This document shows, in pieces, positions 8,963-55,930 of a DNA stretch of 64,000 bases. The stretch comes from Candidatus Woesearchaeota archaeon. Its GTDB lineage: Archaea; Nanobdellota; Nanobdellia; SCGC-AAA011-G17; JACPIM01. Within the stretch, counting starts at the first letter, position 1. Every line of letters starts with the position of its first letter. The stretch is from NCBI GenBank assembly GCA_964457785.1, contig CAYWEX010000001.1, positions 54,477 to 118,476 of the forward strand. Direction: 5' to 3'. Made by a program: the position numbers and the translations under genes. The notes under the pieces were generated by a model. It had not been told where the DNA came from, did not search any database, and worked only from the letters and a program-made list of their open reading frames with translations.

Positions 8963-10039
8963 TTAAATTAAATATTTTGCAAAAGAAATTAATCTAGGTT
9001 CATTAATCAGAAGTCTGAATAATAATTTAGATGGGAAATCCCTGTCATAAGTTTCCAGGATATTTTTAACATTGGCTTTTTTTACCAAATAGATTAACTT
9101 ATCAAGATCATTTTCTGACAATTTATCAAGAACTTTTCTTATCCAGAGATTATATCTTAATTCTCTTCTTAATGAACTAAGAAGCCATTTGTAATTTTTA
9201 TTTTCCAAGATTGCCTTTGATAAATGCTGAGAAGCTATCAGACCTTGAATTATTCCACCATGACTTGGATTTTTAGTGTGACAGGCAGCATCCCCAATAA
9301 GGAAAACTCTTTGATTTTGCAGTTTTTGCTTAGGATCATACATTGGAATTACACCTGACTGGTATTCACGTATTTTTGTATGGGGGGCTCTTTTGCTTAA
9401 CAAAGACCTGAAAAAGAAATTTGAATTTTTATAAGAAGCTGTACCTATTCTTGCAATATTATTATCTTCAGGCACTAACCAGCCAAAATATCCTTCTCCA
9501 ACATAAACTTCAATTACTTCTGGATCTTCAACAGGCAAGGTTACTCTTGCCTGAATGCCTATCATGAATTTTCTGTTATTGTAAATATTTACTGATTTAG
9601 CTACTTGGCTAAAAGGACCATCTGCACCAACCAAGTAATCTGTTTTGAAAATCTTATTATTAGCCATAAACTCTACACTATCTTTATTTAATTTGCAAGT
9701 TTCAAACCTATGATTTAAGAAAAATTTAGCTCCTGAATCTTCTGCTTTTTCTGCAATAAATCTGTCAAATTTCATTCTGTCCAAAACTAAATTAGGATTT
9801 TTGAAATTTATTTCAACAGAATGATTTCTTGAAAATACCTTAAAGCTTTTTATTTTATTTACAATTACTTTTTCTGGTATTTTTATTATCTGATTTATAG
9901 AATCTGTAACCAGGCCGGTACATTGGACTGGATTTCCAATTGTTTTATGGTCTTCATATACATTAACTTCCTGTCTTTTTTTAGCCAGTAAATAAGCTAA
10001 ATGACTTCCAGCTGGGCCTGCCCCTATAATTGATATCAT
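8963..10039 (-). CDS. Geranylgeranyl reductase family FAD-dependent oxidoreductase
   Basis: N-terminal FAD fold 'ISIIGAGPAGSHLAYLLAKK', 'VYEDH...G' and a C-terminal 'GDAACHTKNPSHGGI' motif. Confidence 0.7.
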   Translation of the reverse strand: MISIIGAGPAGSHLAYLLAKKRQEVNVYEDHKTIGNPVQCTGLVTDSINQIIKIPEKVIVNKIKSFKVFSRNHSVEINFKNPNLVLDRMKFDRFIAEKAEDSGAKFFLNHRFETCKLNKDSVEFMANNKIFKTDYLVGADGPFSQVAKSVNIYNNRKFMIGIQARVTLPVEDPEVIEVYVGEGYFGWLVPEDNNIARIGTASYKNSNFFFRSLLSKRAPHTKIREYQSGVIPMYDPKQKLQNQRVFLIGDAACHTKNPSHGGIIQGLIASQHLSKAILENKNYKWLLSSLRRELRYNLWIRKVLDKLSENDLDKLIYLVKKANVKNILETYDRDFPSKLLFRLLINEPRLISFAKYLI

Positions 10040-10947
10040 GGCTCAATTATACTATAAAAAAACTTTATAAATCTATATGGTTGAAAGTATTTATGCTTGT
10101 TGAAACTTTATTGATTTCTCTAGGAATTTTAGGTTTATTGATTGCAACTATCACTGATTTAAGAACAAGAGAAGTTCCTGACTATCTTAATTATTTTTTA
10201 ATAGGGACGGGATTTAGTTTCAGGATTTTTCATTCAATTTTGTTCAATGAATGGACTTATTTTCTTTATGGATTACTAGGATTTTTAGCTGCTTTTTTTA
10301 TAAGTTTATTATTATATTTTACAAGACAGTGGGGGGGCGGGGATGCAAAATTATTAATGTCATTAGGAGTTATTTTTGGGACACAACCTATTTTTTTAAA
10401 AGATGAAGGAATATTTTTCTTGAATTTACTCTTGAATATTTTTATAGCTGGATCTATTTATGGATTAATTTATAGTATTTATCTTGCTTTAAAAAATAAG
10501 AAAGAATTTAAGAAAGAATTTAAGAATGTGCTAAATGGAGACAAAATAATAGTTATAAGAAATATTTCATTTATTGTCGGTATTATTTCATTTACACTTT
10601 CTTTTTTCAGCTCTGATTTGGCTACTAAAGTAATTTTGATTGGCTTTTCCGGTTTCCTTATATTTTACATATATTTCTGGATTTTTGTCAAGGCTGTTGA
10701 AAATACATGTATGTTTAAGGTTATTCCAGTTGACAAATTAACAGACGGAGACTGGGTAGTTGATGATATTTATTCAAATAAAAAATTAATCTACAGCAAA
10801 AACAAACTAGCAGTAGATAAAAATGATATTTTGAGATTTATTAAAGAGGGTGTGAAAAAAGTAAAAATAAAAAATGGGATTCCTTTTGTTCCCTCTTTTT
10901 TAATAGGAACAATTTTAACTTTGATTTTAGGAAATTTATTTATTTGA
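10030..10947 (+). CDS. A24-family prepilin/preflagellin peptidase (PibD/FlaK-like)
   Basis: Polytopic membrane protein with 'ITDLRTREVPD' (first catalytic Asp region) and the 'WGGGDAKLLMSLG' signature of type IV prepilin peptidases. The start may be an internal Met (~10093). Confidence 0.55.
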   Translation: MISWLNYTIKKLYKSIWLKVFMLVETLLISLGILGLLIATITDLRTREVPDYLNYFLIGTGFSFRIFHSILFNEWTYFLYGLLGFLAAFFISLLLYFTRQWGGGDAKLLMSLGVIFGTQPIFLKDEGIFFLNLLLNIFIAGSIYGLIYSIYLALKNKKEFKKEFKNVLNGDKIIVIRNISFIVGIISFTLSFFSSDLATKVILIGFSGFLIFYIYFWIFVKAVENTCMFKVIPVDKLTDGDWVVDDIYSNKKLIYSKNKLAVDKNDILRFIKEGVKKVKIKNGIPFVPSFLIGTILTLILGNLFI

Positions 10948-13016: not shown

Positions 13017-15641
13017 TTAATTTACATCTACAATTCCCTTATCTATAACTTGGAATATTGCTTCAGTTTCGGCCAAATGCGGTGCATCTACCATTTTAGC
13101 TACTCTTGTTCCCTTCTTACCTTTTCTTAAGTAAACCCTGTAAGTTGAATTATGAACTATAAAGCTATTAGCTATATAATTCTCAGAACCTGGAATTGTT
13201 AAATCATAAAATAACTCTTTGTTTTCTTTTCGTGTTATTTTTCTAATTTTTTCCCAGCGAACTGGCATATTTAGTAATTTTTTTAGCCAATCAACTTCTT
13301 TTTGAACTTCTGGATTTAATTTTTTCTTTTCAAGAGCAGAGACTATCTTCTCAAAATTTTTCTTTGTAACTGTTTTATATTCTGGTGACCTATAAGTCAA
13401 AACTGAAAAAGGCTTTATATTGGCTCTTCTTAATAAATTGATTAAATAACTTCTACTAATAGGGATTGCCTCTCTATTGAATTTTTGTTTTTTACCATAT
13501 TGCAGCCACTTGTTTATTTGTTCTTTTTTATCTTTTGCAGTCATTCCTATCTTTTCTCCAAATGAATAACAGTCCCTGTTATCAAAACGAAGATTATAAA
13601 TTAGATCTCCATCTGAATTTACAGATTCTTCGAAAACAGAACGAATATTAAACCTAAGTAAAAGCATTTGGATTATATGCAGCAAACGTTCATTTTTTTG
13701 AGAAATTGTTATTCTGGGTCTATCTTTATCCACTGAGCCTTCTGCATCTGCAAATCCCTTAATAAATGATTTTACACATTCATCCCGAGATTGTGACACT
13801 AATCTTACTGCTTCTAATAAAGCGTAATTTAGTACTTTAGTTATTGCTTTGCTATTTACTTCTAATTCAAAACAGTTTTTATCTTTTAATTTGAATATCC
13901 TTCCTCCTAAATTGAAAGTTGTTTGCATTAATTTTTGGTAATATTCAAGAATGTCTCTTCTTTCATCTCTAAAGCTAATACTATAATTTTCTTGACTTAT
14001 ATTTCCATCCCCAATAAAATAACCTAGAATTCCAGACAATTCTGGGGTGAATTCTTCTGGTATTGTTGTCACATGGTGTTTATTTGTTTCGACTTGCACT
14101 GTATTAATCAGCACTTGCCCATTTCCTTGCTGATTTATATTCTCAATTATCTTTTTATTTGTCGGATAATTCTGATTAAGAATCCTTCTTAATTGTCTTG
14201 GTCTTATTCCTATCTCTTCACAAAATTCTTTTCTTGTAATTTTATTATCTGATAACCAAGATTTTAATTTCTGCGATTCTAACTTTGGAATTTCAAAAAC
14301 TTCATCAACTTCAAATTTAGGCAGTCTCTGAATTTTTCCTTTTACCTTGATTTCTTTTGTTAAAGCTAAATAGTCCCCCTCTTTCAGATCCTGAGCATAG
14401 GTTTCTTCAATTAATCCTTCTCTGTTTAATCTAAAAAATCTATGAGTTGGTGAAGAAGTTATTCGCGATCCAGCATCTATCTCATAAGCTTCATTTAAAT
14501 TTACATTTACAAAAAGAGTTTTTAGTTCTTTTGGACAAAATGCAAATCCATTTTTCATATCTAAAGAGATTACTTGATTTGTTGTCGGTTCAAATAAGTC
14601 TCCTATTGCTTGAATTGTTCCATCAGCCAACTGGATTAACGTTCCAGCAGCAAGACAGTTATGTCCAACTATATGCCCACCAATTGCAGTGGTTGGATCA
14701 CCAAAAAAAGTATCAGGTTTAGACATAACTTGATTGGTAATATAAACAACTAGATTATAAGTTGAAGCTAATTTTTGCAGAGTATGTAAATGCTTATTTA
14801 ATTTCTGCTGCCTGTCGGCAAGTTGACCCCTTCCCGAAAAGTCGGATCTAAAATGCCCCATTAAAGAATCCACAATTACTAATTTTATTGGGAGATTGTC
14901 TTTATTAATTAAATCTTCAACTTTATCTGCCAACAACATTTGATGGTCTGAATTAAAACATCTTGCAACTTTTATATTCTTTAAAATTTTATCAGGATCT
15001 AATCCATTTAATTCCGCAATTTGTTTAATTCTTTCTGGTCTAAATGTGGACTCAGTATCCAACCACACTATCATCCCTTCTGCCCCGCCTTTTTCTTTAG
15101 ATAATTGAACATTTACAGCAAGTTGATGTGCGAGAGATGATTTTCCTGAACCGAATTCGCCGTAGCATTCTGTTATAGCTCCGCTTTCCACTCCCCCACC
15201 AAATAGTGTGTTCAAAGCCTGTGAGTTTGTATTAATTTTCAAAATATTTTTTCTTTTCTCTAATAATTCATCTCCAGATACAAAACCCATGTCCATTTTT
15301 GATCTTGCTGTATTTATTATTTTACGAGCTGTTGCTTCTGTCAATCCAGCAATTTCAGTTAATTCTCCTGGAGAAGCTACTGCTATTGCAAGCATAGTAT
15401 CAAAGCCAGCTTCTCTTAATTTTTCAGCTGTTGCAGCACCTACACCTGGAAGCTCTTCAATAGAAAGTTCTTTTTTTACTGGTTTTTTCTCTTCTAGTTT
15501 TTCTTCAACTTTCAAAACAATTACTTTTTCCTCTTTTTTTTCTTCTAATTTTTGTGAAGCTAAAGGCTTCTTCTCAACTTCTTCTTCTTTCATCTCTTTT
15601 TTCTTCTCAACTAATAATGTTTTTTCAACCATGAATATCAC
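13017..15641 (-). CDS. radA: RadA recombinase interrupted by a LAGLIDADG intein, with KE-rich N-terminal extension
   Basis: HhH 'LPGVGAATAEKLREAGF', Walker A 'GEFGSGKS', '...AIGGHIVGHN' then intein 'CLAAGTL...FIVHN', followed by 'STYRVYLRKGKKGTRVAKMVDAPHL' as in contiguous RadA ('GGHxxAHAxTTRxYLRKGKG'). Confidence 0.85.
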   Translation of the reverse strand: MIFMVEKTLLVEKKKEMKEEEVEKKPLASQKLEEKKEEKVIVLKVEEKLEEKKPVKKELSIEELPGVGAATAEKLREAGFDTMLAIAVASPGELTEIAGLTEATARKIINTARSKMDMGFVSGDELLEKRKNILKINTNSQALNTLFGGGVESGAITECYGEFGSGKSSLAHQLAVNVQLSKEKGGAEGMIVWLDTESTFRPERIKQIAELNGLDPDKILKNIKVARCFNSDHQMLLADKVEDLINKDNLPIKLVIVDSLMGHFRSDFSGRGQLADRQQKLNKHLHTLQKLASTYNLVVYITNQVMSKPDTFFGDPTTAIGGHIVGHNCLAAGTLIQLADGTIQAIGDLFEPTTNQVISLDMKNGFAFCPKELKTLFVNVNLNEAYEIDAGSRITSSPTHRFFRLNREGLIEETYAQDLKEGDYLALTKEIKVKGKIQRLPKFEVDEVFEIPKLESQKLKSWLSDNKITRKEFCEEIGIRPRQLRRILNQNYPTNKKIIENINQQGNGQVLINTVQVETNKHHVTTIPEEFTPELSGILGYFIGDGNISQENYSISFRDERRDILEYYQKLMQTTFNLGGRIFKLKDKNCFELEVNSKAITKVLNYALLEAVRLVSQSRDECVKSFIKGFADAEGSVDKDRPRITISQKNERLLHIIQMLLLRFNIRSVFEESVNSDGDLIYNLRFDNRDCYSFGEKIGMTAKDKKEQINKWLQYGKKQKFNREAIPISRSYLINLLRRANIKPFSVLTYRSPEYKTVTKKNFEKIVSALEKKKLNPEVQKEVDWLKKLLNMPVRWEKIRKITRKENKELFYDLTIPGSENYIANSFIVHNSTYRVYLRKGKKGTRVAKMVDAPHLAETEAIFQVIDKGIVDVN
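13149..14657 (-). mobile_element. RadA intein (503 aa) with HTH plus LAGLIDADG homing-endonuclease domain
   Basis: It starts with Cys ('CLAAGTLIQLADGT', block A) and carries an HTH-like 'ITRKEFCEEIGIRPRQLRRILNQ', LAGLIDADG motifs 'LSGILGYFIGDGN' and 'FIKGFADAEGS', block F/G 'LFYDLTIPGSENYIANSFIVHN', then +1 Ser. Confidence 0.75.
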
Positions 15642-15753: not shown

Positions 15754-16128
15754 TTAATGAGTTTCTATTTTGTCCAAGTAAAGATCTTTTGATGCTTCAG
15801 TTAACAAAGTCAATACTCTAGGAAGATCCATTCTTCTTAAGTTTATTACTTCATTTCTCCATAGTTCTTCATCTTTCTTTTTAAAAGACCTTGACAAAGA
15901 CATTGTCTTGAACTCTACTAGATTTCCATTAACTTCACGTTCATTAGACCACAAAGCAATCTTAAAATTGCTAGATCTCCATTCTTTTATAGGTCTATTT
16001 GACCTTGGTTTAGAATTTTTTGGTTTTTCCATTTTTTTCACACTCCAATTGTTGCTCTCGCATTTTTTTTCACAACCCAAAAGAACCAATGTTCTTATCA
16101 AAGCCTTCAAAATATAATGGCTAGCCAT
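15754..16128 (-). CDS. hypothetical protein, possibly a PC4-like ssDNA-binding protein
   Basis: The C-terminal part 'NGNLVEFKTMSLSRSFKKKDEELWRNEVINLRRMDLPRVLTLL' loosely resembles PC4/YdbC-like domains. The true start may be the internal 'MEKPKNSK' (~16032). Confidence 0.3.
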   Translation of the reverse strand: MASHYILKALIRTLVLLGCEKKCESNNWSVKKMEKPKNSKPRSNRPIKEWRSSNFKIALWSNEREVNGNLVEFKTMSLSRSFKKKDEELWRNEVINLRRMDLPRVLTLLTEASKDLYLDKIETH

Positions 16129-16190
16129 CCCTTATATTAAAGAGGCTTAAAGGGTTAAATACATAAAAGACAATTTTGTTTATAAAGATT

Positions 16191-16242
16191 AGGCAGGTCC
16201 CTGAAATGTCCAGTGAATTTGTCCAGTGAAATTTATAAAGAG
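16191..16242. promoter_or_regulatory. conserved ~52-nt element, copy A: TATA-like box plus tandem TTCACTGGACA repeats
   Basis: 'aggcaggtccctgaaatgtccagtgaatttgtccagtgaaatttataaagag' is near-identical to 59725..59775. It lies in the divergent intergenic region between 16128 (-) and 16317 (+). Confidence 0.45.
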
Positions 16243-16316
16243 ATGAAGTTCTAATTTACAAGTAATAAAAAACAAACAAAATAAAAATTTATAATGTTTA
16301 ATTCTCTAGATAATTT

Positions 16317-16874
16317 ATGCAAATAGATGATAGGACTATTTTAGATAAATTCTGCACTGATTTCTGCAAAATTATTGATAAATATACAAAATATATTATT
16401 GTTTCTGGATTTGTTGCTATTGCTTCAGGCAGAGTAAGAGGTACAGAAGACATAGACATGATTATCGAAAAAATAAATAAGAAAAATTTTGTGAAATTGC
16501 ATAATGAATTAATTAACTCTGGTTTTGTATGCATGCAAAGTGATGATGTTGAAGAAATTTATGATTTATACTTAAATGATAATATTTCTATTAGATATAC
16601 TCCCAAAAACAAGCTTGTTCCACAGATGGAGATTAAATTTACAAAAGATGCCTTGGATGAATATCAGCTTAAAACAAGAATTAAACTCCCATTAACTGGA
16701 TTAGATGTGTGGTTTAGTTCAATTAACATGAATATAGCATTTAAAGAAGAATATTTAAAATCTGATAAAGATATAGAAGATGCAAGCCATTTAAGAATTA
16801 TTTATGAAGATCAAGTTGATGAAAAAGAAATTAATAAAATAAAGGAAATGATTAAAAAAATGAGGTTAAATTGA
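16317..16874 (+). CDS. minimal nucleotidyltransferase-fold protein
   Basis: 'GFVAIASGRVRGTEDIDMII' fits the hG[GS]x(n)DhD motif of polymerase-beta-type NTases. Confidence 0.4.
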   Translation: MQIDDRTILDKFCTDFCKIIDKYTKYIIVSGFVAIASGRVRGTEDIDMIIEKINKKNFVKLHNELINSGFVCMQSDDVEEIYDLYLNDNISIRYTPKNKLVPQMEIKFTKDALDEYQLKTRIKLPLTGLDVWFSSINMNIAFKEEYLKSDKDIEDASHLRIIYEDQVDEKEINKIKEMIKKMRLN

Positions 16875-17133: not shown

Positions 17134-17730
17134 ATGAAAGAGTGGTTAAGAAAATTAGAGGTATTTATTGACAAGTTTATCCCTTATTTACTTGTTTTGT
17201 TAATCTTTGTCATAGTTATAGAATTATTTTTTCATAATATTGCTGAAGAATACAGATATCACATTAATTTATTAGATGGGCTAATTGTAGTTGTATTTTT
17301 ATTGGATTTATATTTTAAATACCAAAGAACAAGGAACATTCCTCAGTTTGTCGGAAAATACTGGCTTGAAATTCTAGCTGTATTTCCTTTTTATTTATTA
17401 TTTAGATTTGTAGAAACTACTCTTGGATTTTTAGAGATAAGCGGAGCAGTAAAACAAGGACAAAATATATTACATAGCGGGATTGAAGCTGAAAAAGAAG
17501 TTACTTTAATTGGAAAAGAAGTTGGTGAAGCTGAGAAATTGGGAGTAAGGGCGAAGGCATTAACTAGAACATTCAGAACTGTAAGCAGAACACCGAGATT
17601 AGTAGCAGCTGCTCAGTTTTATGAACAACCAAAATTTTTGAAAAAAGCTTCAAAAGAAACTAAAAAAGAGTTAAGAAAATTTTCAAAAGAAACTAAAAAT
17701 AAGCTAAAAAGAATAAAAAAGAAATTATAA
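17134..17730 (+). CDS. membrane protein with lysine-rich C-terminal tail
   Basis: 3-4 TM segments, then a KE-rich tail. No selectivity-filter motif was seen. Confidence 0.4.
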   Translation: MKEWLRKLEVFIDKFIPYLLVLLIFVIVIELFFHNIAEEYRYHINLLDGLIVVVFLLDLYFKYQRTRNIPQFVGKYWLEILAVFPFYLLFRFVETTLGFLEISGAVKQGQNILHSGIEAEKEVTLIGKEVGEAEKLGVRAKALTRTFRTVSRTPRLVAAAQFYEQPKFLKKASKETKKELRKFSKETKNKLKRIKKKL

Positions 17731-18754: not shown

Positions 18755-18803
18755 ATCAAGAAATCTGTATTTCTTCAACAGAATTAGAATCTATTATTCT
18801 CAG
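18755..18803. repeat. direct repeat copy 1: duplicated 3' end of the RPA gene
   Basis: 'tcaagaaatctgtatttcttcaacagaattagaatctattattctcagg'. Its reverse complement reads LRIIDSNSVEEIQIS*, matching the C-terminus of 19452..20447. Confidence 0.6.
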
Positions 18804-18891
18804 GCTATTAAGTTTTTAAAAAAATTAATTTCCTGAAATATAGAAAAGTTTTTATAGTATAAATGACTATTAATTTATAGTTAAAAAACAT

Positions 18892-19451: not shown

Positions 19452-19505
19452 TTAAGAAATCTGTATTTCTTCAACAGCATTAGAATTAGAATCTATAATT
19501 CTCTG
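19452..19505. repeat. direct repeat copy 2 (native 3' end of the RPA gene)
   Basis: 'ttaagaaatctgtatttcttcaacagcattagaattagaatctataattctctgg'. It has a 6-nt in-frame insertion (tagaat) relative to copy 1. Confidence 0.6.
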
Positions 19506-20447
19506 GACATTTAATTCTTTTCTGTCAAACATTTCGTTTTTATTTACCTTAACAACAAGGTTTATTTGCTTTCCAAGAACTTTACCTTTTAATTCCTCAA
19601 TCTTTTCAGGAAACTGCCTTAATTCATATAATTGTTGGGAAGTTTTATCTAAGATTTTTTCAGCATGATTTCTAAAAGCTGTTGTCCTTATGCTTTCTGT
19701 ACCATCATCAAAAATAAAATTCAATATTGGGACAAGTTTTTCCTGAACTGAACCATGAGAGTCACAGATAAATTTGCCATCATAAAGCCTTACTTTTTTA
19801 TTGCATTCTGGACAAGCTTCATAAAACCTTGGCTCAAATATCTGAGTTATCGTACCAAAAACAGAAATATTTACATCAGTATCAGTAAGGTCTTTAATTT
19901 GTTTTTTGGGAAAATCTTCCTGTCCTTTAAATTCCCGGACTGATACTGTCTCATTTTCAGGGTTAATTATTATTTGAGACCTGTTGCCTAAGTGAAATTC
20001 CTTGAAAGCATTATTTTCTTTAATGTAACCATTTTTTAATTTTAAAATCGAACCTTCTTTTATTTGAAGGTCTTCTAAATATTTTATTAGATTAGTGTCC
20101 CACAAAACTAATTTTATGATTCCTGTTTCATCTCCAACTAATATATTAGCTACTTTTCCTGATCTTTTTTCTGTCTTGAATTCGCGAACTCCGAAAATTT
20201 TAACAACTTTGCACAATAAATTTACAGAATTCATTCCAGCAATCAATTTATCTACTGTTACTTTTCCAACTGGCTGGAATATTTTAATACCTAGTTCATG
20301 AGCAACTATGTGAGCAGCACCCTCTTTTGTTACAAGGTCTGACATTTTTGCCAGTTTTTCCTTTACTTTTATTTCAATTTCCTGCTCAGGAATATTTGCT
20401 TCCTGGTTTATTCTTTTTATTATATCTTGATAAGACATGCCAAACAT
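19452..20447 (-). CDS. rpa: Replication protein A-like ssDNA-binding protein (OB folds plus C4 zinc finger)
   Basis: OB-fold segments 'GKVANILVGDETGIIKLVLWD' and 'VNISVFGTITQI', and zinc finger 'CPECNKKV...CDSHG'. Confidence 0.65.
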   Translation of the reverse strand: MFGMSYQDIIKRINQEANIPEQEIEIKVKEKLAKMSDLVTKEGAAHIVAHELGIKIFQPVGKVTVDKLIAGMNSVNLLCKVVKIFGVREFKTEKRSGKVANILVGDETGIIKLVLWDTNLIKYLEDLQIKEGSILKLKNGYIKENNAFKEFHLGNRSQIIINPENETVSVREFKGQEDFPKKQIKDLTDTDVNISVFGTITQIFEPRFYEACPECNKKVRLYDGKFICDSHGSVQEKLVPILNFIFDDGTESIRTTAFRNHAEKILDKTSQQLYELRQFPEKIEELKGKVLGKQINLVVKVNKNEMFDRKELNVQRIIDSNSNAVEEIQIS

Positions 20448-53079: not shown

Positions 53080-53931
53080 ATGAAAAAAGAGGAAATTTCT
53101 AAATTTGAAGCTTTTCTTAGAAAGTTTACTAAAAAAAGTGGGAAGAAATTGGGTGAGAGAACTATTGTTGGAATTTTGATATTATCTAAATTTATTGAAC
53201 TAACAAAAGAAAATGAATCTTTAGAAAGTTTGATTTCAAAACATAAAGATTATTTAGAATCTAAAAACCATCCAATAGCAAGATATAGTTTGTGGCTTTA
53301 TTTAAAATCTTTAAATTACTCTGAAAAAATAATAAAAGAAGTGGTTAGTTTTCGAAAAAGAAATTTAACAGCACTAACTGATGAAGAAAAATTAGCCGCT
53401 TCTGTTTTATCTAAAAAAGAATTAATTTTTTTAGTCAATTCTATTACTAATCTCCGAAATAAAGTTCTTGTAAAAATGCTCTATGATAGTGGGGCAAGAA
53501 TATCTGAGATTCTTAATTTGACATTGAAAGATATTGATTTTGAGGCTGGCGAAATAAGTGTAATGGGAAAAGGTAGAAAACCCAGAACTAGTTTTATGCA
53601 AAAAAGTACTATTGACTTATTAAAACTTTTAATCAAAAGCAAAAATATAGTTTCTCCAAATTCTTTAATTTTTACAATAAAACCAAAAACAGCTTGGTAT
53701 CATTTAAAGAAATATGGGGAAAAATTCCTAAATAGAGACTTACACCCACATATGTTCCGACACAGCCGCTTACAACATCTCGCAGACAATGGTGTAGATG
53801 CTTTTGAAATTAAAGCTCTTGCAGGGCATTCTACAATTTCCATAACAGAAACTTATGTTAAATCTTCAAAGTATCAAGGAAAATTAGCTTTTCAAAAAGG
53901 TGGTGATATATGGGAGGAAAATCATGATTAA
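53080..53931 (+). CDS. Tyrosine site-specific recombinase (XerA-like / integrase)
   Basis: R-H-R-Y catalytic set: 'DSGARISEIL', 'HPHMFRHSRLQHL', 'LAGHSTISITETYV'. Confidence 0.8.
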   Translation: MKKEEISKFEAFLRKFTKKSGKKLGERTIVGILILSKFIELTKENESLESLISKHKDYLESKNHPIARYSLWLYLKSLNYSEKIIKEVVSFRKRNLTALTDEEKLAASVLSKKELIFLVNSITNLRNKVLVKMLYDSGARISEILNLTLKDIDFEAGEISVMGKGRKPRTSFMQKSTIDLLKLLIKSKNIVSPNSLIFTIKPKTAWYHLKKYGEKFLNRDLHPHMFRHSRLQHLADNGVDAFEIKALAGHSTISITETYVKSSKYQGKLAFQKGGDIWEENHD

Positions 53932-53955
53932 AAATTTTGCTTTAAAATTAAAACT

Positions 53956-54360
53956 TTATGAAGGAAAAATTTCATAAATACCCCTTCCAGGAAGTCTTTT
54001 TCGAAAACCAGATTTACTTTTTTTAACATCAGATTTCAAAATATTAAGATTAATCCAAGGATCCATCCAAACTTTTCCAGAAAATACTAAAAAATGACCT
54101 ACTGGATATTTTTTAGATCTTTTAATAAAAACAATAGTATTCTTTTTGAATCTTTTTCTATTTTTCACATATTTATAATCATATTTTTTACCTGCTTTTT
54201 TTAAGGCTTCTACAATATCTTTACAATAAAATCCATTTTTATTTGCATCTCCGAGTCCTTTAAAATATTTTTTCTTGGCTGTGCTGTAATTTGTTTTACA
54301 AATAAAAGCTACACAGGCTATACTGCATCCCAAGTTGTCTTCCTGCCTTATGGTTTTCAT
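53956..54360 (-). CDS. hypothetical basic protein, possible Cys/His papain-like (C39-type) peptidase fold
   Basis: 'DNLGCSIACVAFI' and 'GHFLVFSGKVWMDPW'. Speculative. Confidence 0.25.
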   Translation of the reverse strand: MKTIRQEDNLGCSIACVAFICKTNYSTAKKKYFKGLGDANKNGFYCKDIVEALKKAGKKYDYKYVKNRKRFKKNTIVFIKRSKKYPVGHFLVFSGKVWMDPWINLNILKSDVKKSKSGFRKRLPGRGIYEIFPS

Positions 54361-54391
54361 TATTATTCAAATAATTCAAGAATTATTAAAC

Positions 54392-55018
54392 CTAATGCTT
54401 CTTTAATATATCCAAAAGCTTCTTTCTCTTGGCTTTATCATAGAAAACAAGGCCTTTTTCTGTTGTAGAAATGAATATTTGACGACCCTTTCTGGTTTTT
54501 TTGACTAATCCATGTTCATTTAATAAATTAACATAATCAGAAATCATAGATCTAACATCGTTATAGGTTTTTTCAGGATATAATTCCTCAGCCAAATGCT
54601 TCATAGCTACCCTTCTTTGATTAGATTCTATCTGTAATAGACCTAGTCTCATGAACAAATTCTGCTGAATATTTGTTAAATCCTCCCATTTAATGGTTGG
54701 ATTGTTTATAGGAATATCAGTATTGATAACTTGTTGTTCAATAGTTTCTTTTTTACTAGACTTTTCTTTTGGCGATTCTTCAACAGAGTCTAATTCTTTT
54801 AGATTTCTTATTATATTCTCCAAATAGTGGACTCTTTCTTTTAAGTGATTTATCTTATCATCATGAGAAAAAACTACATTATTTACTTTGTGAATATCTT
54901 TTTTAATATTAAAGAAAGAATTTTTTAGATTCTCTTCCATAGTTTTCATTCTACTAAATAAATGAATATCATGAGAACTACTAGTTTCCCTCTTTTTATT
55001 TGAAAATAACCACCACAT
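54392..55018 (-). CDS. coiled-coil plus C-terminal winged-helix regulator
   Basis: C-terminal 'NIQQNLFMRLGLLQIESNQRRVAMKHLAEELYPEKTYNDVRSMISDYVNLLNEHGLVKK' (MarR/TrmB-like wHTH). Confidence 0.45.
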   Translation of the reverse strand: MWWLFSNKKRETSSSHDIHLFSRMKTMEENLKNSFFNIKKDIHKVNNVVFSHDDKINHLKERVHYLENIIRNLKELDSVEESPKEKSSKKETIEQQVINTDIPINNPTIKWEDLTNIQQNLFMRLGLLQIESNQRRVAMKHLAEELYPEKTYNDVRSMISDYVNLLNEHGLVKKTRKGRQIFISTTEKGLVFYDKAKRKKLLDILKKH

Positions 55019-55249: not shown

Positions 55250-55930
55250 CTATGTGAGAGTTGTTTGTATTGGATCAGATCGAGAAAATAGATTAACTAA
55301 ACGACCCTTAAGATTCAAAGATCTGAAAGAATTATCAATTAGGAGGAGAGTGAGTTTATTATTAAGACGGATTTTTTGCAAGGGAACTGCCTTTTTTAGC
55401 ATTTGTGAGACATAAGTTCTAATACAACCTTCTGATAGAGATAAGTGTCGTGAGAGTTCAAGATAAGAAACTCCCCTATTTAGATCTTCTTCAAGTTGAT
55501 AAATAGTTAAAAAACATAGAAATTCTCCTTTTGTGAGAGTTAAAAATAAAGAATCAATATCTTTTAAGTTAGATAATGACCATTCTTTAGAAATTTGTTG
55601 AGATTGTTTAGCTAGGTGAGAGTTTATTTGCGTATCTGTTTGTTTGCTTGTCTGTTGAATGTCTGTTGAATGTCTGTTGAATGAATGCATATGTGAATGA
55701 ATGAATGAATGAATGTCTGCATAGACCCCTTGATTTCCTGTGGAACTTATTTCCTGTGGAACTTCTTCGTTTGTTGATGGTTTTGAATCTAATTTTTGTT
55801 CAGAATTTTCTTTTTTTGTCAGTTCTTTAATAAGGCTTTTAACCTCATTTAATTGGCTTTTTAGGGTTTCTATGTCTTCTTTTACTTTTAAGAAAGATTG
55901 TTTTATTTTCTCTTTTTCATCTATGTCCAT
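55250..55930 (-). CDS. coiled-coil plus C-terminal winged-helix regulator, with internal His-rich tandem repeats
   Basis: wHTH 'GEFLCFLTIYQLEEDLNRGVSYLELSRHLSLSEGCIRTYVSQMLKK'. The CDS contains (GAAT)n and 11-nt tandem repeats at 55621..55725. Confidence 0.45.
   Translation of the reverse strand: MDIDEKEKIKQSFLKVKEDIETLKSQLNEVKSLIKELTKKENSEQKLDSKPSTNEEVPQEISSTGNQGVYADIHSFIHSHMHSFNRHSTDIQQTSKQTDTQINSHLAKQSQQISKEWSLSNLKDIDSLFLTLTKGEFLCFLTIYQLEEDLNRGVSYLELSRHLSLSEGCIRTYVSQMLKKAVPLQKIRLNNKLTLLLIDNSFRSLNLKGRLVNLFSRSDPIQTTLT

What the first reader, a model, noticed from the sequence alone, without database searches (positions are those of the whole stretch)
16191..16242. Highly conserved ~52-nt element present twice (also 59725..59775): TATA-like box plus tandem direct repeats TTCACTGGACA
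The two copies are ~87% identical ('aggcaggtcc-N5-tgtcYagtgaa(a)tttgtccagtgaaatttataaagRg') in otherwise unrelated AT-rich intergenic DNA. This is far above what promoters normally share. Read on the minus strand, each has 'cTTTATAAAtttcactggacaaa(t)ttcactRgaca...ggacctgcc': a TATA-like box followed by two ~11-nt direct repeats that would overlap the transcription start. That is the geometry of a repressor operator. Copy A sits between a PC4-like gene (15754..16128, minus) and an NTase gene (16317..16874, plus). Copy B sits just upstream of the free-standing LAGLIDADG gene inside the split Lon locus. It could be a shared operator, a small-RNA gene, or the footprint of a mobile cassette that delivered the endonuclease gene.
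Basis: seen in the sequence. Interest (0 to 1): 0.6.

Follow-up and report, generated by a model that had tools for sequence, protein, structure and literature searches.

The report
Copied radA promoter drives endonuclease gene
The repeated ~52-nt element is the core of a ~105-nt promoter and regulator-binding module that sits in front of the recombinase (radA) operon in this group of small archaea, and a second copy lies in front of a selfish homing-endonuclease gene, which probably ties that gene's expression to the cell's recombination genes.

Summary
Both copies exist at the stated coordinates and are far more alike than chance allows. The homology is longer than reported: about 105 nt (16163-16268 vs 59697-59801).

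Read on the minus strand, each copy has this order:
- an AAGTA-like motif
- a palindromic TATA box (TATA1)
- two direct repeats (core GGACAA)
- CTGCCTAA (BRE-like)
- a second TATA box (TATA2)
- AAAATTRTCTT

Copy A is the ancestral copy. The same architecture, with the same spacing, lies upstream of the conserved "92-aa protein + RadA" operon in five other related lineages. Copy B was found only in this genome. It puts TATA2 29 nt before the ATG of the free-standing LAGLIDADG endonuclease gene inside a split LonB intein. That matches the modal TATA-to-ATG distance of leaderless genes in this window.

The repeat flanks differ between lineages but match within each genome. This points to a sequence-specific factor, which I could not identify.

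I found no RNA structure, no Rfam match, no transposon features and no further copies.

Best reading: a radA-operon regulatory module was duplicated onto the endonuclease gene, so the two are co-regulated. This is a new member of a known kind and is moderately interesting.

The parts
16156..16268 (-). Copy A: complete ~105-nt promoter/regulatory module upstream of the 92-aa-protein/RadA operon (ancestral location)
   Evidence: Local alignment with copy B. nhmmer E=8e-24. Orthologous modules in L081, L084, L087, L093 and L099.
16232..16239 (.). TATA1 of copy A: palindromic TTTATAAA, invariant in all 7 modules
   Evidence: Alignment A2. No BRE-like flank in the operon direction.
16220..16230 (-). 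Repeat 1 of copy A (minus strand TTCACTGGACA; conserved core GGACAA). The core starts 7-8 nt after TATA1.
16207..16217 (-). Repeat 2 of copy A (TTCACTGGACA), 13 nt after repeat 1. The core lies about 25 nt before TATA2.
   Evidence: and sequence read directly.
16187..16200 (-). GGACCTGCCTAATC block. CTGCCTAA-NN directly upstream of TATA2 matches this genome's BRE-like consensus (AA at -4/-3, C at -1).
16179..16186 (-). TATA2 of copy A (TTTATAAA), 53 nt downstream of TATA1. Inferred core promoter of the operon; predicted start near 16156.
   Evidence: TATA1-TATA2 distance is 52-54 nt in all 7 modules.
16165..16178 (-). Conserved CAAAATTGTCTTTT block between TATA2 and the predicted start site
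   Evidence: Alignment A2.
16260..16268 (+). AAGTAATAA motif 20 nt beyond TATA1 on the + strand. Possible start site of a divergent transcript, or a relic of the ancestral divergent gene's start.
   Evidence: Conserved in winA, winB, L081, L084 and L087. In L087 it holds the ATG of the divergent membrane-protein gene.
15754..16032 (-). 92-aa conserved protein, first gene of the operon (start corrected from 16128)
   Evidence: Synteny with RadA.
13017..15641 (-). RadA recombinase carrying a LAGLIDADG intein, second gene of the operon
   Evidence: Pfam Rad51, Intein_splicing and LAGLIDADG_3.
59689..59801 (-). Copy B: complete module in the spacer between the LonB-N/intein-N ORF and the free-standing endonuclease ORF
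   Evidence: E=7.5e-22. The same sequence is in an independent Logan contig, L001.
59766..59773 (.). TATA1 of copy B (TTTATAAA)
59754..59764 (-). Repeat 1 of copy B (TTCACTGGACA). Together with TATA1 it is part of the 23-nt block identical to copy A.
59739..59749 (-). Repeat 2 of copy B (TTCACTAGACA), 15 nt after repeat 1
59725..59734 (-). GGACCTGCCT block of copy B
59712..59719 (-). TATA2 of copy B (TTATATAC). The 8-mer starts at -29 from the endonuclease ATG (59690), so a leaderless mRNA is inferred.
   Evidence: In this window, TATA start positions peak at -30 (range -32 to -28) before ATGs.
58608..59690 (-). Free-standing LAGLIDADG homing endonuclease gene (360 aa) inside the split LonB intein
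   Evidence: AlphaFold pLDDT 93.8. Foldseek to I-DmoI, E-DreI and the TliVMA intein endonuclease: probability 1.00, E down to 4e-6. Homologues fused to intein-N exist.
59816..60811 (-). LonB N-terminal part plus N-intein
   Evidence: Pfam AAA-type hits and a weak Intein_splicing hit at residues 256-323. Colinear with fused homologues.
57062..58426 (-). C-intein (...[13 protein letters not shown]) plus LonB C-terminal part
   Evidence: Pfam Lon_C and LonB_AAA-LID. Translation.

Best explanation
The element is the centre of a ~105-nt cis-regulatory module of an AT-rich DPANN-type archaeon. The relatives are labelled Woesearchaeota or Nanoarchaeota.

On the minus strand the module reads: AAGTA-like motif, about 20 nt, TATA1 (palindromic TTTATAAA), 4 nt, repeat 1, repeat 2 (13-15 nt later; conserved core GGACAA), 8-10 nt, CTGCCTAA-NN (BRE-like), TATA2, AAAATTRTCTT, then the start site.

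Shown:
- Its native place is the divergent intergenic region upstream of the conserved '92-aa protein + RadA' operon.
- This genome has a second copy in the spacer that splits the LonB intein.
- In that copy, TATA2 lies 29 nt before the ATG of the free-standing LAGLIDADG endonuclease gene.

Inferred:
- TATA2 with its BRE-like flank is the core promoter that fires toward the genes. The endonuclease mRNA is leaderless. The radA-operon mRNA has a 5' leader of about 125 nt.
- The two repeats are binding sites for a sequence-specific DNA-binding factor that I could not identify. They lie between the two TATA boxes, 52-54 nt apart, upstream of TATA2 and next to TATA1.
- TATA1 is either the promoter of a divergent transcript, as in one relative, or a second upstream promoter.
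- Because both loci carry the same sites, the endonuclease should be switched on and off together with the RadA operon, whose recombinase is what homing depends on.
For: 1. The duplication is real: alignment score 85 vs 18.6 +/- 2.5 for shuffles, about 105 nt long.
2. Orthologous conservation: the regions upstream of the 92-aa-protein/RadA operon in L081, L084, L087, L093 and L099 carry the same blocks in the same order. TATA1 is invariant and the TATA1-TATA2 distance is 52-54 nt. nhmmer E-values run from 1e-16 to 1e-25.
3. The blocks conserved between A and B (TATA1, repeats, CTGCCT, TATA2, AAATTRTCTT) are the same ones conserved among orthologues. The spacers differ.
4. Promoter logic of this genome: TATA 8-mers peak at -30 from ATGs, which implies leaderless mRNAs, with AA at -4/-3 and C at -1. 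Copy B's TATA2 starts at -29 from the endonuclease ATG. The TATA2 flank GCCTAAYC scores in the 87th-93rd percentile of a BRE-position matrix in five of the seven modules; copy B (65th) and L099 (78th) score lower. TATA1's flank in the gene direction scores in the 23rd-57th percentile in six of seven (73rd in L099).
5. Repeat flanks match within a genome (5.9 of 7 positions) but not between lineages (3.0 of 7). All four repeats of A and B share the flank TTCACT. This fits a co-evolving or homogenised protein site.
6. A second lineage (L094) also has an extra exact copy of 'TATA1 + one repeat', 19 nt identical, 6 kb from its radA module.
7. Endonuclease orthologues (62-67% identity) in the same PRC / LonB-N / HE / LonB-C synteny lack the module, so copy B is specific to this lineage.
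8. Copy B is also present in an independently assembled contig.
Against: - No transcript data exist. Start sites and promoter directions are inferred from spacing only.
- No binding protein is identified. No obvious regulator gene is conserved next to either locus.
- Only two copies were found in about 70 kb of this genome, so calling this a 'regulon' rests on two targets.
- Copy B's BRE-like flank is degraded (CCTGACGC, 65th percentile).
- Repeat spacing varies from 13 to 15 nt, which is unusual for a rigid dimeric binder.
- A-B identity (76%) equals A-L081 identity (76%). The age and direction of the copy are therefore uncertain, and the perfect 23-nt block could be a short gene-conversion tract rather than the result of selection.
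I cannot exclude that reading.
Confidence: 0.6

Rival explanations
1. TATA1 is the working promoter toward the genes. Transcription starts inside repeat 2, near 16210 or 59743 on the minus strand. The two repeats are a repressor operator between the TATA box and the start site that blocks RNA polymerase recruitment. TATA2 is a second, downstream promoter or is irrelevant.
For: - TATA1 is the best-conserved block: invariant in 7 of 7 modules.
- Repeat 1 sits at a fixed 4 nt after TATA1.
- The block 'TATA1 + repeat 1' is 100% identical between A and B over 23 nt.
- The same block is what was duplicated again in L094.
- From established knowledge, repressors that bind between the TATA box and the start site are the commonest archaeal mode.
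Against: - The flank of TATA1 in the gene direction is pyrimidine-rich and lacks the AA/C signature of promoters in this genome (23rd-57th percentile in six of seven modules, 73rd in L099).
- TATA2, not TATA1, is at the leaderless distance from the endonuclease ATG.
- In L087 the reverse side of TATA1 is 24 nt from the ATG of the divergent gene.
- In L094 the extra copy has no gene downstream in this direction, but has a tRNA-Thr on the other side.
Confidence: 0.17
2. The repeats are mini-ORB-like sites bound by the Orc1/Cdc6 initiator (gene at 61466-62677) acting as a transcription regulator. This would couple the RadA operon and the endonuclease to replication or DNA damage.
For: - The + strand unit TGTCCAGTGAAA resembles the Pyrococcus 13-bp mini-ORB TTCCAGTGGAACT (PMC1904270).
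- It also resembles ORB cores of this clade: GTTCCAGTGGAAA in L077, TTCCAGTGAAAA in the L079 origin region, and TCTCCAGAAGAAA at window 61161-61199.
- Asymmetric sites in direct repeat with flexible spacing fit a protein that binds as a monomer.
- Copy B lies 1.7 kb from cdc6.
Against: - The two ORB core motifs defined in PMC1904270 (TTCC and GAA) are not met. All radA modules have GTCC. The GAA half is present only in this genome; other lineages have AGTAG, AGTGGG, TTTGGC or AATAC.
- The TCC-to-GAAA spacing is 3 nt, against 4 nt in the G-string ORBs of this clade.
- There is no G-string and no AT-rich unwinding region.
- Copy A is 45 kb from cdc6.
Confidence: 0.08
3. Copy B is simply a duplicated piece of DNA that happened to supply a usable TATA box. 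The repeats have no function at the endonuclease locus, and their identity to copy A reflects recent ectopic gene conversion rather than selection.
For: - Identity is uneven: a perfect 23-nt tract within a 76% background.
- Copy B's BRE-like flank is decaying.
- Endonuclease orthologues work with unrelated upstream sequences.
Against: - Every block conserved among orthologues is also retained in copy B, including CTGCCT and AAATTATCTT, which lie outside the perfect tract.
- The homology ends at both predicted start sites rather than at arbitrary points.
- Repeat 2 of copy B keeps the lineage-specific flank.
Confidence: 0.1
4. The element encodes or is part of a small structured RNA.
For: It is short, conserved, intergenic and flanked by TATA boxes.
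Against: - Fold z-scores are -0.39, +0.67, -0.06 and +0.70 for both copies on both strands.
- RNAalifold finds no consensus pair in the 7-sequence alignment.
- No Rfam match up to E=1.
- The conserved blocks are TATA boxes and direct repeats, not helices.
Confidence: 0.03
5. The element is the end of a MITE, an IS or another mobile cassette that delivered the endonuclease gene.
For: Two dispersed copies, one of them next to a selfish gene.
Against: - Copy A is at an orthologous, syntenic position in six lineages.
- There are only two copies in the window plus the 6-kb extension.
- I saw no terminal inverted repeats or target-site duplications in the sequence.
- Exact-pattern scans of the genome, metagenome and viral collections gave only chance hits.
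- Endonuclease orthologues lack the element.
Confidence: 0.02

Closest known systems
Regulated archaeal BRE/TATA promoters with transcription-factor sites next to the TATA box, such as upstream activating sites of the Ptr2/Lrp type or repressors that bind between TATA and the start site (from established knowledge)
   Same: TATA boxes at the canonical distance from the start site, a BRE-like flank, and short repeated protein-site-like motifs at fixed positions relative to the TATA boxes. The same motif occurs at more than one promoter.
   Different: The motif (core GGACAA in direct repeat, 13-15 nt apart, between two TATA boxes 52-54 nt apart) matches no regulator motif I know of. The factor is unidentified. 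The repeat flanks evolve in concert within each genome.
'Fractured genes': split inteins with a free-standing homing endonuclease gene between the halves (Dassa et al. 2009, PMC2677866)
   Same: The order is host-gene N-part plus N-intein, then a free-standing endonuclease ORF with its own control region, then C-intein plus host C-part. That paper stresses that gene breaking needs a new functional promoter.
   Different: - Those loci were mainly of phage origin, and half of them carried a Vsr-related endonuclease family.
- Their control elements were proposed to arrive with the invading endonuclease.
- Here the host is an archaeal chromosome (LonB) and the endonuclease is LAGLIDADG-type.
- Fused intein-N/endonuclease relatives exist.
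- The promoter appears to be copied from a host operon (radA).
Archaeal origin recognition boxes (ORB and mini-ORB) bound by Orc1/Cdc6 (PMC1904270)
   Same: A 13-nt asymmetric unit containing TCCAGTG, arranged in tandem. It resembles ORB cores found next to cdc6 in this clade.
   Different: It lacks the defining TTCC and, in most lineages, the GAA. The half-site spacing is one base shorter. There is no G-string and no unwinding element. It is conserved upstream of radA, not next to cdc6.
Repeated intergenic promoter cassettes, e.g. halovirus HF2 intergenic repeats that carry promoters (PMC8707807, seen)
   Same: Near-identical short intergenic repeats that are promoters placed before different genes.
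   Different: Those are many copies within one virus genome. Here there are two copies in a cellular genome, and one of them is orthologously conserved across lineages.
Homing limited to recombination-proficient states, e.g. yeast VMA1 intein endonuclease (PI-SceI/VDE) homing only in meiosis (from established knowledge)
   Same: The same idea: endonuclease activity coupled to the time when the host's recombination machinery is active.
   Different: In yeast the control is not by sharing a recombinase promoter. Here the coupling is inferred from shared cis elements only.

Membership tests
Archaeal BRE/TATA core promoter (TATA2) | An A/T-rich TATA 8-mer about 22-25 nt upstream of the transcription start. 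In a leaderless genome this means it starts about 30 nt before the ATG. | tested here: met
   TATA starts peak at -30 (range -32 to -28) before ATGs in the window. Copy B's TATA2 starts at -29 from the endonuclease ATG. For copy A the gene has a long leader, so the distance cannot be checked this way.
Archaeal BRE/TATA core promoter (TATA2) | A BRE-like flank directly upstream that fixes the direction (in this genome AA at -4/-3 and C at -1). | tested here: met
   GCCTAA(T/C)C in copy A and most orthologues scores in the 87th-93rd percentile. Copy B (CCTGACGC) reaches only the 65th and L099 the 78th.
Archaeal BRE/TATA core promoter (TATA2) | An experimentally mapped transcription start. | not testable with these tools
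   No transcriptome data are available.
Transcription-factor operator or upstream site (the two repeats) | The motif is conserved at orthologous promoters at a fixed position relative to core promoter elements. | tested here: met
   The GGACAA core is present twice in all 7 modules (GAGACAA and AGACA in two of them). The repeat 1 core lies 7-8 nt after TATA1 and the repeat 2 core 23-25 nt before TATA2.
Transcription-factor operator or upstream site (the two repeats) | The same motif occurs at more than one promoter of the same genome. | tested here: met
   Two loci in this window. A second site in L094. Only about 70 kb of this genome could be searched.
Transcription-factor operator or upstream site (the two repeats) | An identified cognate DNA-binding protein. 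| not testable with these tools
   No regulator gene is conserved beside either locus. Binding assays are needed.
ORB / mini-ORB (Orc1/Cdc6 sites) | The perfectly conserved core motifs TTCC and GAA (PMC1904270). | tested here: not met
   All modules have GTCC. GAA follows only in this genome's copies and not in L081, L084, L087, L093 or L099.
ORB / mini-ORB (Orc1/Cdc6 sites) | Clustered at an AT-rich unwinding region next to orc1/cdc6, with longer ORBs carrying a G-string. | tested here: not met
   The real ORB pair with GGGGTG lies at 61161-61404 next to cdc6. The module has no G-string, and copy A is 45 kb away.
MITE / IS end | Terminal inverted repeats, target-site duplication, and many copies at non-homologous sites. 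| tested here: not met
   Two copies only. Copy A is at an orthologous position in six lineages. I saw no inverted ends in the sequence.
Structured small RNA | Stability above shuffled controls, covarying helices, or a match to a known family. | tested here: not met
   Fold z-scores from -0.39 to +0.70. No consensus pairs. No Rfam hit up to E=1.
Fractured gene (split intein plus free-standing homing endonuclease) | The upstream ORF ends in an N-intein, the downstream ORF starts with a C-intein joined to the C-extein, and an endonuclease ORF lies between them. | tested here: met
   - Weak Intein_splicing hit at the end of LonB-N.
- LonB-C begins with ...[13 protein letters not shown].
- The middle ORF has an I-DmoI-like LAGLIDADG fold.
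- The three-ORF synteny is conserved in L076, L077 and L079.
- Trans-splicing itself was not tested.

The most novel reading that the evidence does not exclude
A selfish homing endonuclease gene, freed from its intein by gene fracture, has been wired into the host's recombination regulon by acquiring the complete regulatory module of the RadA operon. A dedicated factor whose specificity drifts with each lineage then switches on the recombinase and the endonuclease together. That factor might be the Orc1/Cdc6 initiator acting through mini-ORB-like sites. If so, DNA cutting would happen only when repair by recombination is available.
Probability: 0.2. Interest if true: 0.7.

Novelty: new member of a known kind. 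Interest (0 to 1): 0.42.

Why it matters
- Transcriptional regulation in DPANN archaea is almost unexplored. This gives a defined, phylogenetically footprinted regulatory module for their recombinase operon, with a concrete motif to use for finding its regulator.
- It offers a plausible answer to a question raised for fractured genes: where does the new promoter come from? Here it appears to be copied from a host operon.
- It suggests that a homing endonuclease can be timed to the host's recombination capacity.
- All of this can be tested with start-site mapping and binding assays.

Tried and rejected
- Exact-pattern scans for the tandem repeat in 185,579 genomes and in viral contigs, and for repeat + TATA in JGI metagenomes and viral contigs. 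All hits were chance matches or unrelated tandem repeats in bacteria and phages. The source genome is not in those collections.
- Extending the genome: only 6.2 kb to the left could be fetched (L101), and it holds no further copy.
- Profile search (nhmmer) with the 7-sequence module over the window and all fetched loci. No third copy in the window. The only weak hits were the partial copy in L094 (E=0.075) and the TATA2 part upstream of the endonuclease in L076/L077 (E about 2, not significant).
- Small-RNA reading: rejected.
- MITE/IS reading: rejected on orthologous position and copy number.
- Endonuclease target-site reading: by eye, the LonB extein junction (...HDPLQ|SGGLGTP) shows no resemblance to the repeat.
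- 'PC4-like' label for the 92-aa protein: no Pfam or PDB sequence hit, 0.1% hhalign probability against human PC4, and only a non-significant Foldseek match to Sub1 (E=0.36). Left as unknown.
- Search for a regulator gene near either locus: only a weak winged-helix hit at 54392-55018, inside a possible integrated element.
- Protein-based scans of viral contigs for more loci found nothing.

Full report
**1. The observation**

The two copies are at the stated coordinates. Over 16191-16242 vs 59725-59775, 46 of 54 alignment columns are identical. The 21-mer TGTCCAGTGAAATTTATAAAG occurs exactly twice, against 0.02 expected. Local alignment of the two intergenic regions scores 85, against 18.6 +/- 2.5 (maximum 30) for shuffles.

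The similarity is longer than reported, about 105 nt: 16163-16268 vs 59697-59801. Read on the minus strand, which is the direction of both neighbouring genes, each copy has this order:
- an AAGTA(A/G)TAA motif
- about 20 nt of spacer
- TATA1, the palindrome TTTATAAA
- TTTC
- repeat 1 (ACTGGACAAA)
- repeat 2
- GGACCTGCCT
- TATA2 (TTTATAAA in A, TTATATAC in B)
- (C)AAATT(G/A)TCTT

**2. The organism and the neighbouring genes**

The window has 29% G+C. It encodes RadA with an intein, Cdc6/Orc1 and a split archaeal LonB, and an intron-containing tRNA. Named homologues come from Woesearchaeota and Nanoarchaeota MAGs.

The ORF left of copy A is really 92 aa (15754-16032). All 20 homologues cover only that part. 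In every relative examined it is followed by radA.

I could not confirm that this protein is PC4-like. The '185-aa NTase' has no Pfam hit. It is an insertion shared with one other lineage (78% identity). It lies between the module and a membrane-protein gene (17134-17730), and that gene is the direct divergent neighbour of the module in L087 and L093.

The ORF right after copy B (58608-59690) is a LAGLIDADG endonuclease. The AlphaFold model has pLDDT 93.8. Foldseek gives probability 1.00 to I-DmoI, E-DreI and the TliVMA intein endonuclease. It sits between LonB-N + N-intein (59816-60811) and C-intein + LonB-C (57062-58426...[13 protein letters not shown]).

The same three-ORF arrangement is conserved in relatives. 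Other relatives have the endonuclease fused to the N-intein. So the spacer that holds copy B interrupts what was once a contiguous intein.

**3. Where the element comes from**

Scans of the public genome, metagenome and viral collections with exact patterns gave only chance hits. The source genome is not in those collections.

I therefore fetched orthologous loci through the proteins. The regions upstream of the 92-aa-protein/radA operon in five other lineages (L081, L084, L087, L093, L099) all contain the same module:
- an invariant TTTATAAA
- two direct repeats with core GGACAA
- (C)TGCCTAA-NN
- TTTATAWA
- NAAAAT(T)RTCTTT

The TATA1-TATA2 distance is 52-54 nt in all seven modules, even though the repeat spacing varies from 13 to 15 nt. 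A profile of the module recovers these copies at E = 1e-16 to 1e-25 and finds no third copy in the window or in a 6-kb extension.

The endonuclease orthologues (62-67% identity) in the same synteny have different upstream sequences. Copy A is therefore at the ancestral position. Copy B was found only in this genome. It is also present in an independent Logan assembly.

A-B identity (76%) equals A-L081 identity (76%), so the duplication is not very recent. Alternatively, copy B has diverged faster outside the constrained blocks.

**4. How it most likely works**

In this window, TATA-like 8-mers pile up at -30 (range -32 to -28) from ATG codons. This means most mRNAs are leaderless. The flank has AA at -4/-3 and C at -1.

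Copy B's TATA2 starts at -29 from the endonuclease ATG. The TATA2 flank GCCTAAYC fits the flank consensus (87th-93rd percentile) in five of the seven modules; copy B (65th) and L099 (78th) fit less well. The flank of TATA1 in the gene direction scores in the 23rd-57th percentile in six of seven (73rd in L099). I therefore infer that TATA2 is the gene-directed core promoter.

Three observations suggest that TATA1, being palindromic, can fire the other way:
- In L087 its reverse side is 24 nt from the ATG of the divergent membrane-protein gene.
- A single palindromic TATA box visibly serves two divergent leaderless genes elsewhere in this window (8963-10039 and 10093-10947).
- In L094 an extra exact copy of 'TATA1 + one repeat' faces a tRNA-Thr gene in that direction.

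The A/B homology ends at the two predicted start sites. This fits the copying of a whole divergent promoter region.

The repeats lie between the two TATA boxes. Their 7-nt flanks are nearly identical within a genome (5.9 of 7 positions) but not between lineages (3.0 of 7). All four repeats of A and B share TTCACT. This is what one expects for sites read by a sequence-specific protein, or sites that are kept homogenised.

The shared sites imply that the RadA operon and the endonuclease are co-regulated. That step is inferred, not shown.

**5. Rivals**

It is disfavoured by the flank analysis and by the position of TATA2.
- The mini-ORB idea deserves mention. TGTCCAGTGAAA resembles the mini-ORB TTCCAGTGGAA (PMC1904270) and the ORB cores next to cdc6 in this clade. 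However, the defining TTCC and GAA are not conserved in the radA modules of the other lineages, and the half-site spacing differs.
- A structured RNA is rejected.
- A transposon end is rejected because copy A is at an orthologous position and there are only two copies.
- A functionless duplicate maintained by gene conversion remains possible for the repeats of copy B.

**6. Comparison with known systems**

Functionally this is a regulated archaeal BRE/TATA promoter with protein-site-like repeats. The motif and its target genes have not, to my knowledge, been described.

The locus around copy B is an archaeal, chromosomal, LAGLIDADG version of the 'fractured gene' arrangement (PMC2677866). That paper points out that gene breaking requires a new promoter. 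Here the promoter looks copied from the host's radA operon.

**7. Verdict**

This is a new member of a known kind, of moderate interest. The main open points are the start sites, the binding factor and the full list of targets in the genome.

Noticed in passing
window 57062-60811: LonB is encoded in three ORFs: the N-part with an N-intein, a free-standing LAGLIDADG endonuclease, and a C-intein with the C-part. This arrangement is conserved in several DPANN relatives. Other relatives have the endonuclease fused to the N-intein. It is an archaeal chromosomal version of a 'fractured gene'.
   Followed up: partly
window 61161-61404: Probable replication origin between the PRC-barrel gene and cdc6. 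Two inverted ORB-like elements with G-strings (reverse complement of 61161-61199: TCTCCAGAAGAAAGTAAGGGGTGGGTG; 61375-61404: GTCTCTACATGAAATTATGGGGTGAG) flank a very AT-rich stretch. Relatives have GTTCCAGTGGAAATCATAGGGAGAGGGGGG at the same place.
   Followed up: partly
window 55622-55764: A cluster of tandem repeats inside a doubtful ORF (55250-55930): TGTCTGTTGAA x3, (TGAA)n, and ATTTCCTGTGGAACTT x2, the last being mini-ORB-like (TTCC-N4-GGAA). It lies next to a winged-helix protein, a C39 peptidase and a tyrosine integrase (53080-55018). This may be an integrated element with its own origin.
   Followed up: no
window 16033-16156 (minus strand) and orthologous regions in L081, L084, L087, L093, L099: The radA-operon leader (about 80-160 nt) is unusual in a mostly leaderless genome. 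It has a long hairpin whose sequence varies between lineages, a tiny GNRA hairpin (GCGAGAGC or CCGAAAGG), and a near-invariant GGAGTGTGAAAAA-ATG. This suggests control after transcription.
   Followed up: partly
window 18757-18805 vs 19453-19507: An intergenic copy of about 50 nt of the 3' end of the RPA-like gene (24 nt identical). It is probably a gene-fragment remnant.
   Followed up: partly
window 16317-16874: The 185-aa ORF between the module and the membrane-protein gene is absent at this position in L087 and L093 but present in L099 (78% identity). It looks like an inserted gene that displaced the ancestral divergent neighbour.
   Followed up: partly
L094 7466-7485: In another lineage, an exact 19-nt copy of 'TATA1 + one repeat' (TTTATAAAGCCAAAGGACA) lies 6 kb from its radA module. 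It sits between a tRNA-Thr(CGT) gene and a 53-aa zinc-ribbon ORF. This hints that the motif has further targets.
   Followed up: partly
L082 and L083, position 1: Two Logan contigs from different runs both begin exactly inside the L081-type module, at repeat 2. This is an assembly break that could reflect another copy or strain variation in that genome.
   Followed up: no
L076 9900-10000 and L077 9900-10000: The endonuclease upstream spacer in these relatives has its own direct repeats (TTTCGGGAATTTCGGAAAA or TTCCGAAAATTCCGGAAAA). A similar TTTCGGAAATTTCG lies beside the ORB at window 61364-61377. The part near TATA2 (TGCCT...TTTATATAG.AAAATTAT) weakly resembles the radA module.
   Followed up: no
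window 10040-10092: A single palindromic TTTATAAA is centred between two divergent ATGs 53 nt apart (genes 8963-10039 and 10093-10947). It appears to be a bidirectional leaderless promoter that uses one TATA box.
   Followed up: no
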